From contig NW_018407390.1 of assembly GCF_002113885.1 (NCBI RefSeq), forward strand, positions 2,725,587-2,789,586: a DNA stretch of 64,000 bases, given 5' to 3'. Shown here piece after piece: positions 15,001 to 18,000 of the stretch; the stretch's first letter is position 1, and each line of letters opens with the position of its first letter. The position numbers are program-made. The DNA comes from Mizuhopecten yessoensis (Eukaryota).

Positions 15001-18000
15001 CCATATGTAATACAGCCAAATGTAACAAAGCCACATGCTTTCGTTTAGATATATAATTGGGATTGGACCTCTACATTGCTCTCTATATTAAGAACACAAG
15101 TTGTATTTTCCATAAAGTGTCTCTCGAGTCAGTCCCTATGTAGCTAACTTGAAAATCAAATAAGATCGGAGAAGATATCTTGTTATTCACAAACACAAAA
15201 ATAAAAGCAAAATGTTGCATACAATTGATGCTGACATTCACTCTCTTAATTACTACTATTATGCAACCAGTAAAAGACGTTCACAAGAAAAAACGAAACC
15301 TTGCAAGACTTCTCGATTACTAAGAGGTATTTAAAAGTCATAGGTCATTAACTTCAGTGTGGAATATGGCTATAATTTCTCCTTTAATGATTTCTTCAAA
15401 TGATGTTTTACTATTTACGATATGAACGAGTTTTACATTAACAATATAAGGTTATACAAATTAGGGTTTTAAGACAAGGTACAGAACATGTTGAGATTTA
15501 CAATGCCAACCATTCGAAAGCATAATATAAACAGCTTCTTAGATTTGAAGTCGATTTGGTTTAACGGCATGTCCTAACTTGTTCGTCTCAAATATCCCTT
15601 TTAGTGAACCATTAACCCTTCGACTTATTATTAGTTCTATCGCCATTTTACCACCATTATGAACACATTTTGTCAATTTATTCAGTCCTGTTTGCCCAGA
15701 TATATAGCGAGGTCCTAATGTTGAGTCGGAGTCACCTGAGAAAAACCACGTGGTCGGACAGGTGACTCTCTACTTATTTTCATTTACTGTAAAATCACGT
15801 TAAAGACTAAGTTATATTTATCAATTAATTGTTTGATATTTTGAAAGTTTTAACCAACGGTACGTATACTGAAACTGTATTCATCTTACCTTTTAAGGAA
15901 ATTCAGTGACACAATCCGATATTGATATGGAAAACCAACACAAAGTGACAATTCACAGTATGTGTACGATTTAAGTAATTTTGATGAAAAAAGAGATTTG
16001 TCAGTGCTGCAAATAGGGATGCAATAGTGATGCCAGGAATTTACAAAACAAGCCAAACTGACAACGAAAGGAAAATTTAAAAAATTAAACAAGCACAAGC
16101 TGCCATTAAGATGAAAATAAAATACTCATAGAATAAAGATGGAGGTAGAATATGTGACGAAAGTAATACCCCTCACAACAAAATATAGATAAATTCAATA
16201 TTATTAGAAAAAAATGACATTTTCTTACCTTCAAAAAAATATGAGTCATCTGGCAGAGAGTCTGTGAATAAGTCTATTTGTTTGCTGGGGTAACAGTGCG
16301 CAATAGTAGAGAGTATTACCACCACCACCGCCACGTACGAACACACGTATATGTTTGGCTGCATCCTTTTTCTGTCAACGTTTTCAGAATAGTGTCACTC
16401 AGGTCCAAAGTTTATCAAACAGTCTACAATCCCAATGTAAGTTGTTGCCAATGATACTAACGTGAGCCTGTATAGGAAATATGTTTTTCTGTTTAAACGT
16501 TTTAACTGTGCTATCTCAAAAACTTCATTTCATAGAGATGGTATGTCACTTTTATAGATCTATTTACAACTGTCAATAAAGGAGTGATCGTTTGGAAAGA
16601 GACTTGTCAACTGGTCAGATGAAGTTGAAATGTACGCTAATATAGCATTTATATATGCATGTGTGTATACAAACACTGTCGCGGAGCCTAGTCAATAATT
16701 CAGCGTACTAACCACACACGCGCGTGTAGGTTTCATTATTGCGACAGACCAGTAAGAATCAGATTTCACAGTCGAAATACGGGGGCGCTTTCAAGTGCAA
16801 ATTATCTTTGGTTTTCAATGAAACTCGTTACGTACATAATCTAGCAGTCACGTGACTTATTTCCTTCCCACGGAATATAGTCTACAGCCATTGGACAGGT
16901 ACGTAGCGGACAGATTGGATTGAAGCAAAATTGGGTTGCCAAGCTGTAACACGAAATGTCAATTATACTAATTTGTTTACGCTTATTTGTGTGGCTTTCT
17001 ACTTGATCCCTGGACTCTTTGCTCTTTTACAAGCGCCCGGAGAATACTGATCATTGTCCCTCGGGTGATCTGTTTCATTCTGTCGCTACCATAGCTGCCT
17101 ACTCGTATGCCTACCACTGGACATTTACAGTCGCCAGGGAGCAAGCTGCAAACAGCGATTCTAGTAAATTACATTAAATGAGGGAGCCATGCACGACAAA
17201 TAACACACAACCATCCCGGAAGGCGATTTGTTAAAGTAGCTAGAGGGATCAGTTTTACTACACTCTCCGAATAGATATAAAACTTGAAACAGACTCCTAT
17301 GAGATGAACCACACCATAATCAGTAGGCTACAAACAGTACTAGATGTCGTTATTACACTCGCAGAGAGCAGACTGTTTGAATCCCCAGACGGCTGATTTC
17401 TTACTTACATACTTACAAGTACAACCATATAAGAAGAATCACAGATGTCAACTAGCAACTACACAAATGTACTTAAATCCACAGTGTCATATATACTTAT
17501 TACGGATGAACAATTGATATTTATACGAATCTACCAATACAACCCTATCTGTTAAACTACAGACGCATTGAATAAAATAACACTTTCCGGACAAAAGCAT
17601 TCCCCATGAAACATATTTGAAGCCAAATAACTTTGGTTTAAACATATTTTAGGTGGAATATTTATTTCTTAGGGATAGGAACCAATAGAAAACCCCAGAA
17701 ACGTACTTTTCATTAAACTGTATTTACCGTCAACTTAATTTTATTAATAGAAAAATCTGGCGGAGTAGTTTGACGTTCATGGAGATATATTCCTAATGAC
17801 AAACATTGTTATCCAGATATAAAAATACGTAAGATATATTTCGAAAAGTGATTAGGTATTTTTTCATCTTTTGGGTATTAGATAATAAGTAGTTAAAGTA
17901 AGATAGCTTATAGTTGATGTCTGGCAATATGTTTGGTACTCCAAAATAATCACATAAATGTTTTTATCTAATTTAAGACCTAACAATGAAGTTGTGATTT

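What the first reader, a model, noticed from the sequence alone, without database searches (positions are those of the whole stretch)
16229..16467. Second signal-peptide exon with the same design: possible secreted-peptide gene cluster
Seen: 30 kb downstream on the same strand, a 136-nt coding exon has a signal peptide, a Tyr at the predicted +1 position, an acidic spacer and a phase-1 GTAAG donor, like the exon at 51340. There is no obvious sequence identity between them. I tried the visible minus-strand acceptors from 16228 to 1 and found no convincing KR/amide exon, so the rest probably lies beyond the window start or was missed. Inference: two tandem prohormone-like genes, either old paralogues or co-located hormones.
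Basis: partly seen in the sequence, partly recalled or inferred. Interest (0 to 1): 0.65.

Follow-up and report, generated by a model that had tools for sequence, protein, structure and literature searches.

The report
Scallop SYGAGamide neuropeptide gene, tandem paralogue
The flagged exon is the first exon of an already published scallop neuropeptide precursor gene (SYGAGamide), and the similar exon 35 kb upstream belongs to a divergent neighbouring copy that seems not to be annotated.

Summary
On the minus strand, ATG 16364 to base 16229 is a 136-nt phase-1 coding exon with a GTAAG donor. It encodes a signal peptide, a Tyr-Pro start and an acidic stretch. All 45 residues match a 117-aa Mizuhopecten yessoensis protein, NCBI LOC110455033, which UniRef names 'SYGAGamide'. 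Zhang et al. 2018 list SYGAGamide among 13 new scallop neuropeptides and report it confirmed by mass spectrometry. Oyster workers call the family WGAGamide. Residues 46-117, which hold the peptides, are not in the window, so intron 1 exceeds 16.2 kb.

The 51340 exon fits in phase with an exon at 46639-46521. That exon encodes KR, a 31-residue peptide, then Gly-Arg-Lys and a stop, and is 46% identical to the SYGAGamide C-terminus. A profile built only from non-scallop relatives picks it first of 3,440 window ORFs (E 7.8e-6). I found no such protein in two large protein searches and no mention in print.

Argopecten gene models join a 51340-type signal peptide to SYGAGamide exons, so the two units may be linked in transcription. 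Peptide function and receptor are unknown. The gene is known; the paralogue is a modest addition.

The parts
16229..16364 (-). Coding part of exon 1 of the SYGAGamide precursor gene (gene B). It encodes the signal peptide (about residues 1-24) and the start of the propeptide (residues 25-45 plus the first base of Asp46), and ends in phase 1.
   Evidence: 45/45 identity to P0002
16224..16228 (-). GTAAG splice donor of intron 1 of gene B.
   Evidence: In P0002 residue 46 is Asp, which fits G + AY across the junction.
1..16228 (-). Intron 1 of gene B, incomplete. The exon or exons for residues 46-117 lie beyond the window start.
   Evidence: No tblastn or HMM match to residues 46-117 in 1-16228.
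16365..16526 (-). Inferred 5' UTR of gene B. The 5' limit is a guess from the TATA box.
   Evidence: Inference; no RNA evidence.
16549..16556 (-). TATAAAAG, a likely TATA box of gene B, 192 nt upstream of the ATG.
   Evidence: only 2 minus-strand matches in 64 kb, and both lie upstream of the two signal-peptide ATGs.
51241..51340 (-). Coding part of exon 1 of the paralogue (gene A): 100 nt, phase 1, signal peptide, then Tyr-Thr-Ile-Pro-Arg-Gln.
   Evidence: 53-55% identical to the N-terminus of Argopecten irradians isoform X3
46640..51240 (-). Inferred intron of gene A (4,601 nt, GT...AG, phase 1).
   Evidence: Donor; acceptor tttatttattccAG. The frame is kept across the junction. Inferred, with no RNA evidence.
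46521..46639 (-). Coding part of exon 2 of gene A. It encodes Lys-Arg, a 31-residue peptide (P0006 residues 5-35), Gly36 as amide donor, Arg-Lys and a TAA stop.
   Evidence: top hit of a non-pectinid family HMM among 3,440 ORFs
46194..46199 (-). AATAAA, a likely polyadenylation signal of gene A, about 320 nt after the stop.
   Evidence: read from the sequence
51497..51504 (-). TATAAAAG, a likely TATA box of gene A, 164 nt upstream of the ATG.
16718..16726 (-). CACGCGCGT (palindromic core ACGCGCGT) upstream of gene B. The only other exact copy in the window lies upstream of gene A.
51569..51577 (-). CACGCGCGT upstream of gene A.
16229..16261 (-). Hypothetical 33-nt internal-exon form of exon 1B, behind an in-phase AG at 16263-16262. 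It corresponds to the 11-residue block present in Argopecten isoform X2 and missing in X3.
   Evidence: Sequence; alignment A1. Hypothesis only.

Best explanation
The flagged exon is exon 1 of the Yesso scallop (Mizuhopecten/Patinopecten yessoensis) SYGAGamide neuropeptide precursor gene, a member of the bivalve family that oyster workers call WGAGamide.

The exon supplies the signal peptide and the first 21 residues of the propeptide. A phase-1 intron of more than 16.2 kb leads to coding sequence outside the window. In the database protein that sequence carries Arg-Arg and Lys-Arg cleavage sites and a C-terminal block of 33 residues followed by Gly-Lys-Arg.

Inferred processing, from standard prohormone biochemistry:
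- The signal peptidase cuts before Tyr25.
- Prohormone convertases cut at the basic sites.
- Carboxypeptidase removes the basic residues.
- Peptidylglycine alpha-amidating enzyme turns the exposed Gly into a C-terminal amide.

This gives either one 33-residue amide (P0002 residues 82-114) or, if the conserved internal Gly-Arg is also used, a 22-residue helical amide (82-103) plus a 9-residue amide ending in Arg-Phe-Gly-Ala-Gly. The peptides would be released from neurons and act on a still unknown receptor, most likely a G-protein-coupled one.

About 35 kb upstream on the same strand lies a compact two-exon tandem paralogue of 72 codons: exon 1 at 51340-51241 and exon 2 at 46639-46521. It has the same intron phase and its own TATA box. 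It lacks the long spacer and the internal Gly-Arg site, so it would give a single 31-residue peptide starting with Gln (likely pyroglutamate) and ending in Arg-Phe-Gly-Ala-Ala-amide.
For: Shown here:
- 45/45 identity of the exon translation to P0002, named 'uncharacterized protein LOC110455033 [Mizuhopecten yessoensis]' by NCBI and 'SYGAGamide' by UniRef.
- Orthologues in Pecten maximus (72%) and Argopecten irradians (58-59%).
- 17 proteins at E <= 1e-3 in a profile search of 1.84 billion representatives.
- 15 hits at E <= 1. Of these, 9 carry a source name, all from bivalves (8 species), and 6 have no name.
- The core (Ser/Thr/Asp)-(Leu/Ile)-Asn-x-Leu, the internal Gly-(Arg/Lys) and the end Arg-(Phe/Trp)-Gly-x-Gly-Gly-basic are conserved. 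The internal site is present in 20 of 22 sequences.
- AlphaFold2 predicts a helix at residues 84-95 of the mature region, but at mean pLDDT 62 only.

Paralogue:
- tblastn of P0002 gives 46% identity, E 2.8e-5. Pairwise BLASTP gives E 3e-8.
- An HMM of 17 non-pectinid members ranks ORF 46524-46667 first of 3,440 ORFs at E 7.8e-6. The next hit has E 0.55.
- The acceptor sits 5 codons before Lys-Arg, and the frame fits the phase-1 donor at 51241.
- The stop follows Gly-Arg-Lys directly, and an AATAAA lies about 320 nt on.
- Exon A is conserved at 55% with an Argopecten protein.
- The only two minus-strand TATAAAAG in the window lie 164 and 192 nt upstream of the two ATGs.

From papers (passages read):
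- SYGAGamide is one of 13 newly named scallop neuropeptides and one of six confirmed by MS (PMC5996578).
Against: - No RNA evidence could be consulted for either gene in this window, so transcription starts, the A1-to-A2 splice and the poly(A) site are inferred.
- The paralogue's second exon is only 38 codons, so an open frame is weak evidence of function. It has lost the internal Gly-Arg site that 20 of 22 relatives keep.
- No protein like the paralogue turned up in the two large protein searches. That fits either an unannotated gene or an unexpressed one.
- In Argopecten the exon-A-type signal peptide is joined to SYGAGamide exons. Exon A could therefore serve gene B rather than, or as well as, exon 2'.
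- The cleavage pattern and amidation are predicted. The MS peptides are in supplements I could not open.
- No receptor or function is known.
Confidence: 0.9

Rival explanations
1. One complex transcription unit rather than two independent genes. Transcripts from promoter A could end in exon 2' and yield the Arg-Phe-Gly-Ala-Ala-amide peptide. Or they could skip it and splice into part of exon 1B and the downstream exon, yielding the SYGAGamide peptides. That would be an alternative-3'-exon design like calcitonin/CGRP, with promoter B as a second start.
For: Argopecten irradians isoforms X2 and X3 (P0004, P0005) start with a signal peptide 55% identical to the window's exon A, not exon 1B. They continue into the SYGAGamide propeptide and peptides. 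Part of their middle segment aligns with the 3' half of exon 1B (33% over 27 residues). The 11 residues that X3 lacks relative to X2 match the last 11 codons of exon 1B, which in the window follow an in-phase AG at 16263-16262. Both donors are phase 1.
Against: In Mizuhopecten and Pecten maximus the database proteins use the exon-1B signal peptide. Exon 1B has its own ATG, signal peptide and TATA box. No Mizuhopecten protein with exon A was found. Gene-prediction pipelines do sometimes fuse tandem paralogues, so the Argopecten models may be read-through artefacts. About 30 kb of repeats separate the units.
Confidence: 0.2
2. The upstream copy is a decaying duplicate. Exon 2' is a relic no longer expressed, and exon A is either dead too or survives only as an alternative first exon.
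For: No matching protein in 1.84 billion representatives or the 5.8 billion set. The conserved internal Gly-Arg site is lost, there is a 2-residue gap, and the amidated end has changed. Only 46% identity remains.
Against: Every signal needed for a working precursor is intact: ATG, signal peptide, phase-compatible GT/AG, Lys-Arg, Gly-Arg-Lys, a stop straight after, TATA and AATAAA. The residues invariant across the A1 alignment (Leu, Asn, Asp, Leu, Arg, Ala, Met, Gly, Tyr, Arg, Phe, Gly, Ala, Gly) are kept. Short two-exon peptide genes are commonly missed by annotation (general knowledge).
Confidence: 0.15
3. The whole family is the bivalve counterpart of arthropod DH31 (the disulfide-free calcitonin-type diuretic hormone) and would act on a calcitonin-type class B receptor.
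For: The three nearest ESM Atlas clusters for P0002 are arthropod DH31 / diuretic hormone class 2 precursors, at scores 0.93, 0.93, 0.92 with 167, 159 and 160 of 256 features shared. Length, single-peptide layout, a Gly-rich amidated end and a predicted helix are alike.
Against: Only 3 of the ten best family-bearing hits share that family, which the tool reads as 'probably wrong'. The other hits are assorted neuropeptide precursors. With the mature part alone (residues 79-117) DH31 disappears and the best score is 0.89, for a bacterial DUF. None of the 12 members scanned matched any Pfam peptide-hormone family at E <= 10. The scallop paper reports separate calcitonin/DH31 precursors.
Confidence: 0.06
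4. The flagged exon is a chance ORF with a hydrophobic start.
For: ORFs of 45 codons or more are common here: 140 in the first 20 kb.
Against: 45/45 identity to an annotated, published protein and conservation in two other scallop genera.
Confidence: 0.01

Closest known systems
SYGAGamide precursor of Patinopecten (Mizuhopecten) yessoensis (Zhang et al. 2018, PMC5996578; NCBI LOC110455033)
   Same: The flagged exon encodes residues 1-45 of this protein without a mismatch. It is the same gene.
   Different: Nothing differs for the flagged exon. The paper (passages read) works from transcripts and does not describe the gene structure, the >16 kb intron or a neighbouring copy.
Cragi-WGAGamide precursor of Crassostrea gigas (PMC8398477)
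   Same: [quoted passage not shown] Profile hits P0009, P0010 and P0012 carry the Arg-Trp-Gly-Ala-Gly-Gly end that fits this name.
   Different: Trp instead of Phe before Gly-Ala-Gly. It was not detected by MS in oyster, and its expression in visceral ganglia is very low.
Calcitonin/CGRP-type loci (duplicated peptide exons behind shared 5' exons)
   Same: Two paralogous peptide-coding 3' exons lie on one strand. In Argopecten there are models that join the upstream signal-peptide exon to the downstream peptide exon.
   Different: Here each unit has its own ATG, signal peptide and TATA box, and 30 kb lies between them. Shared transcription is not shown in this species. The comparison with calcitonin/CGRP rests on my own knowledge, not on a call.
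Arthropod DH31 (Pfam DH2-like)
   Same: Similar precursor size and layout, and the nearest clusters in the ESM Atlas feature search.
   Different: No Pfam match, no signal with the mature part alone, and a different C-terminal residue (Gly or Ala amide).

Membership tests
SYGAGamide/WGAGamide neuropeptide precursors (bivalves) | N-terminal signal peptide | tested here: met
   Both window exons start with Met, a hydrophobic core and small residues at -3/-1. AlphaFold2 gives a helix at 3-24 of P0002. No dedicated signal-peptide predictor was run.
SYGAGamide/WGAGamide neuropeptide precursors (bivalves) | Sequence identity or similarity to the named scallop protein | tested here: met
   Flagged exon: 45/45. 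Paralogue exon 2': 46% over 39 residues, E 3e-8 pairwise, and HMM E 7.8e-6 among 3,440 ORFs.
SYGAGamide/WGAGamide neuropeptide precursors (bivalves) | Basic cleavage site just before the conserved (Ser/Thr/Asp)-(Leu/Ile)-Asn-x-Leu helix | tested here: met
   20 of 22 family sequences have a basic residue within 3 residues upstream. P0002 has Lys80-Arg81 and the paralogue has Lys3-Arg4 of P0006. For the flagged gene this part lies outside the window and comes from the database protein.
SYGAGamide/WGAGamide neuropeptide precursors (bivalves) | Internal Gly-(Arg/Lys) site splitting the block into two amidated peptides | tested here: met
   Met for the flagged gene's protein (Gly104-Arg105 of P0002). 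Present in 20 of 22 sequences. NOT met by the window's paralogue P0006, which has a 2-residue gap there, nor by P0012.
SYGAGamide/WGAGamide neuropeptide precursors (bivalves) | C-terminal Arg-(Phe/Trp)-Gly-x-Gly + Gly + basic residues (amidation signal) at or near the protein end | tested here: met
   P0002 ends in Arg-Phe-Gly-Ala-Gly-Gly-Lys-Arg. The paralogue has the variant Arg-Phe-Gly-Ala-Ala-Gly-Arg-Lys-stop.
SYGAGamide/WGAGamide neuropeptide precursors (bivalves) | Mature peptides present in nervous tissue | not testable with these tools
   PMC5996578 states that SYGAGamide was confirmed by MS; the peptide list is in closed supplements. Nothing is known for the paralogue.
DH31 / calcitonin-type peptides | Match to the Pfam DH2-like or calcitonin profiles | tested here: not met
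   None of the 12 members scanned matched any such family at E <= 10. I could not confirm that this Pfam copy holds PF27927.
DH31 / calcitonin-type peptides | Similarity carried by the mature peptide itself | tested here: not met
   Atlas search with residues 79-117 gives no DH31 cluster; the best score is 0.89, to a bacterial DUF.
DH31 / calcitonin-type peptides | Activation of a calcitonin/DH31-type class B receptor | not testable with these tools
   Needs a receptor assay.

The most novel reading that the evidence does not exclude
The SYGAGamide locus of scallops is a two-promoter, two-terminus neuropeptide unit. The upstream signal-peptide exon (51340) can be spliced either to its own short peptide exon (46639-46521), giving one long Arg-Phe-Gly-Ala-Ala-amide peptide, or across 30 kb into the 3' part of exon 1B and on to the SYGAGamide exon. 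One promoter would then choose between two paralogous amidated peptides, as the calcitonin/CGRP gene does. The paralogue would also be a so far undescribed bivalve neuropeptide.
Probability: 0.2. Interest if true: 0.5.

Novelty: new member of a known kind. Interest (0 to 1): 0.3.

Why it matters
The flagged exon adds nothing new, because the gene is annotated and its peptide is published.

The small gain is genomic. The SYGAGamide gene has a first intron longer than 16 kb. It sits next to a compact, divergent and apparently unannotated paralogue, 12 kb from POLR3C.

If the paralogue is expressed, scallops have one more amidated neuropeptide to add to peptidomics search lists and receptor-deorphanisation screens, in a bivalve family with no known function or receptor.

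The Argopecten models hint at shared transcription of the two units, which public RNA-seq data can test. The case also shows that short two-exon peptide genes escape automatic annotation.

Tried and rejected
- **Downstream exon in the window.** I looked for it on the minus strand in 1-16228 with stop-to-stop ORFs, tblastn with P0002 and family HMMs. None is present.
- **Pfam on window ORFs.** A scan of 150 of the 162 ORFs of 60 aa or more that passed a complexity filter (190 before filtering; 12 dropped by hand to fit the 150 limit, mostly overlapping frames in repeats) gave only RT fragments, a weak DDE_3 hit and the POLR3C HTH_9 exon.
- **Pfam on family members.** Of the 12 members scanned, none matched a peptide-hormone family. 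There were two chance-level hits at E 0.24-0.25.
- **PDB sequence search with the family profile.** One hit at E 1.2 (RNase HI), which I take as chance.
- **ESM Atlas.** The DH31 lead from the whole protein was not kept by the mature part alone. I treat it as a likeness in layout.
- **Structure.** AlphaFold2 of P0002 with a 12-row alignment gave mean pLDDT 62 and only a signal-peptide helix and a short helix at 84-95. I did not send it to a fold search, because a match to a 12-residue helix would mean nothing.
- **DNA similarity between the two 5' exons and promoters.** The alignment showed no real similarity, and BLASTP of the two exon translations gave nothing.
- **Shared upstream words.** The two upstream regions share an 11-mer, CACGCGCGT, GTTGTAAAT, TATAAAAG and TTTGATAAA. 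This is only mildly unusual: 1.8% of 2,861 and 3.0% of 2,875 random 500-nt pieces do as well. The overall count of TATAAAAG in the window is at chance (5 found, 5.8 expected). Only its position upstream of both ATGs is notable.
- **Cluster look-up.** The species of P0008-P0010, P0012, P0013 and P0018 therefore stay unknown.
- **Joined model.** I neither assembled nor searched the joined (spliced) model of the paralogue. Its exons went into searches as separate rows.
- **Not available.** Synteny in other bivalves, the adjacent window and the published MS peptide lists stay unchecked.
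Full report
**1. What is at the coordinates**

On the minus strand an ATG at 16364-16362 opens a 136-nt coding stretch that ends at 16229. It is followed by GTAAG at 16228-16224. The translation (P0001) has 45 residues: a hydrophobic signal-like start, Ala-His-Cys before Tyr25, then Tyr-Pro-Ser-Lys and a stretch with 5 acidic residues in 21. The exon ends after the first base of a codon, so it is phase 1.

A TATAAAAG lies at 16556-16549, 192 nt upstream of the ATG. 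The window is AT-rich (about 35% G+C), full of minisatellites, and has one N at 41179, which I left alone. I take the contig for scallop, not human (see section 2).

**2. Identity**

A search with the 45 residues against longer proteins returned one hit, P0002. It has 117 aa, 100% identity and 100% coverage, E 1.2e-21. NCBI names it 'uncharacterized protein LOC110455033 [Mizuhopecten yessoensis]' and UniRef names it 'SYGAGamide' (sequence).

Zhang et al. 2018 (PMC5996578; I read passages only) list SYGAGamide among 13 newly named scallop neuropeptides and among the six confirmed by mass spectrometry. Réalis-Doyelle et al. 2021 (PMC8398477; passages only) describe the oyster relative as Cragi-WGAGamide. 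According to that paper:
- the precursor potentially encodes four peptides;
- it was not detected by MS, and its transcripts are very rare in visceral ganglia;
- no physiological function has been reported.

These two were the only papers found for the terms SYGAGamide, GAGamide, WGAGamide, RFGAGamide, GAAamide and MRFGAA.

**3. The rest of the gene is not in the window**

tblastn of P0002 against the window matches residues 1-45 at 16364-16230. It finds no identical match for residues 46-117 anywhere. Family HMMs find nothing in 1-16228.

**4. The family**

Word-based searches gave orthologues in Pecten maximus (72%) and Argopecten irradians (58-59%).

A profile search of 1.84 billion representatives gave 17 proteins at E <= 1e-3, of which 3 are at E <= 1e-10 and 2 at E <= 1e-30.

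A second word-based search with a 12-row alignment gave 15 proteins at E <= 1 among 1,359 candidates. Nine carry a source name, all from bivalves: Mizuhopecten, Pecten, Argopecten (two isoforms), Mactra, Solemya, Mercenaria, Ruditapes and Dreissena. Six are unnamed.

The conserved part is the C-terminal block:
- a basic site;
- (Ser/Thr/Asp)-(Leu/Ile)-Asn-x-Leu at the start of a predicted helix (AlphaFold2 helix 84-95 of P0002, but mean pLDDT only 62);
- an internal Gly-(Arg/Lys), present in 20 of 22 sequences;
- Arg-(Phe/Trp)-Gly-x-Gly-Gly-basic at the end.

In alignment A2, a Tyr/Phe-Pro just after the signal peptide recurs in 7 of the 10 rows that have an N-terminus, and 2 more have Tyr-Thr-(Ile/Leu)-Pro.

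No Pfam family and no solved structure matches.

**5. The second gene**

The same tblastn run gave an unexpected match at 46634-46524 on the minus strand: 46% identity to residues 79-117 of P0002, E 2.8e-5.

The sequence there has a pyrimidine-rich acceptor ending in AG at 46641-46640. An exon starts at 46639 whose first two bases complete a phase-1 codon. Then come Met-Asn-Lys-Arg, 31 residues, Gly-Arg-Lys and TAA at 46523-46521. An AATAAA follows at 46199-46194.

A TATAAAAG lies 164 nt upstream of it. That and the one before exon 1B are the only two minus-strand copies in the window.

The two exons fit in frame into a precursor of 72 codons. I derived this from coordinates only.

As a test free of circularity, I built an HMM from 17 non-pectinid family members. 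It ranks ORF 46524-46667 first among 3,440 window ORFs of 12 aa or more (E 7.8e-6, 24.5 bits). The next hit is the flagged exon's own ORF at E 0.55, and nothing else falls below E 1.

**6. How the paralogue differs**

It has almost no spacer: 11 residues lie between the predicted signal cleavage and the peptide. It has a 2-residue gap where relatives have Gly-Arg. Its last residue before the amide-donor Gly is Ala, not Gly.

It should therefore give one 31-residue peptide starting with Gln. The flagged gene can give a 33-residue amide, or a 22-residue amide plus a 9-residue amide. These processing steps are inferred from general prohormone biochemistry and were not shown here.

**7. Is the paralogue known?**

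No protein resembling it appeared, whose profile included its exon 2. None appeared, whose alignment held both its exons as rows. No paper holds its end motif.

Caveats: one search uses at most 100 words, and the scallop paper's supplements were closed, so a second precursor listed only there would escape me.

**8. A link between the two units**

The Argopecten irradians isoforms X2 and X3 start with a signal peptide that matches the window's exon A (17 of 31 identical; tblastn E 7e-8 at 51340-51239), not exon 1B. Yet they continue into the SYGAGamide propeptide and peptides.

Part of their middle segment aligns weakly with the 3' half of exon 1B (9 of 27 identical). The 11 residues that X3 lacks correspond to the last 11 codons of exon 1B. 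In the window these are preceded by an in-phase AG at 16263-16262.

This raises the possibility of read-through or alternative splicing from promoter A into gene B. It could equally be a fused gene model. I rate it at 0.2 for Mizuhopecten.

**9. Weak leads**

The two upstream regions share CACGCGCGT. Its exact copies occur only at 16718-16726 and 51569-51577. Six matches at up to 1 mismatch were found against 1.7 expected, and 1 of 100 shuffles reached that number. They also share an 11-mer and further 9-mers. Comparable sharing occurs in 1.8-3.0% of random 500-nt pieces, so this is suggestive at most.

The ESM Atlas placed arthropod DH31 precursors nearest to P0002 (0.93; 167 of 256 features). 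Only 3 of the ten best family-bearing hits agree, the mature part alone gives no such hit, and Pfam is silent. I read this as a likeness of precursor layout.

**10. Verdict**

The flagged gene is already known: annotated, named, and its peptide reported by MS. What is new is modest:
- the gene structure;
- a tandem, divergent, apparently unannotated paralogue 35 kb upstream and 12 kb from the POLR3C start exon (63519-63734);
- a hint that the two units may share transcripts.

Function and receptor remain unknown for the whole family.

Noticed in passing
window 63519-63734 (+): This ORF matches Pfam HTH_9, the helix-turn-helix domain of RNA polymerase III subunit RPC82 (E 4.8e-9, profile positions 2-49). 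It is therefore a 5' coding exon of POLR3C, divergent from the paralogue's promoter about 12 kb away.
   Followed up: partly
window 56979-59173 (-): Three adjacent ORFs form a broken non-LTR retrotransposon. RVT_1 matches at 57876-58430 (E 1.1e-18) and at 56979-57872 (E 6.4e-6), with stops between them.
   Followed up: partly
window 19822-20922 (+): A 366-aa open frame, the longest non-repeat ORF in the window, has no Pfam match at E <= 0.01. It is perhaps the tail of a mobile element.
   Followed up: partly
window 25523-28427, 35098-36468, 38066-40651, 41295-43110: Large minisatellite arrays between the two peptide genes: 24-nt unit x121, 21-nt x65, 25/50-nt x103/52, and a related degenerate 40-130-nt array. 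They cause the strong GC and AT skew at 24-28 kb and the long repetitive ORFs.
   Followed up: partly
window 49277-49798: A 48-nt tandem repeat (10.8 copies) lies inside the paralogue's intron. It gives long ORFs on both strands, and one frame has a sub-threshold DDE_3 hit (E 0.0099).
   Followed up: no
window 1-344 and 60091-60579: Further tandem arrays: 62-nt x5.5 at the very start of the window, and 60-nt x8.1.
   Followed up: no
window 46523-46528 (-): The stop of the paralogue's exon 2 sits in AAGTAAGG, which reads like a splice donor after the second base of the Lys codon. If used it would leave phase 2, which does not fit the phase-1 exons downstream, so I take it for coincidence.
   Followed up: partly
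window 41179: A single N inside the degenerate minisatellite; left as it is.
   Followed up: no
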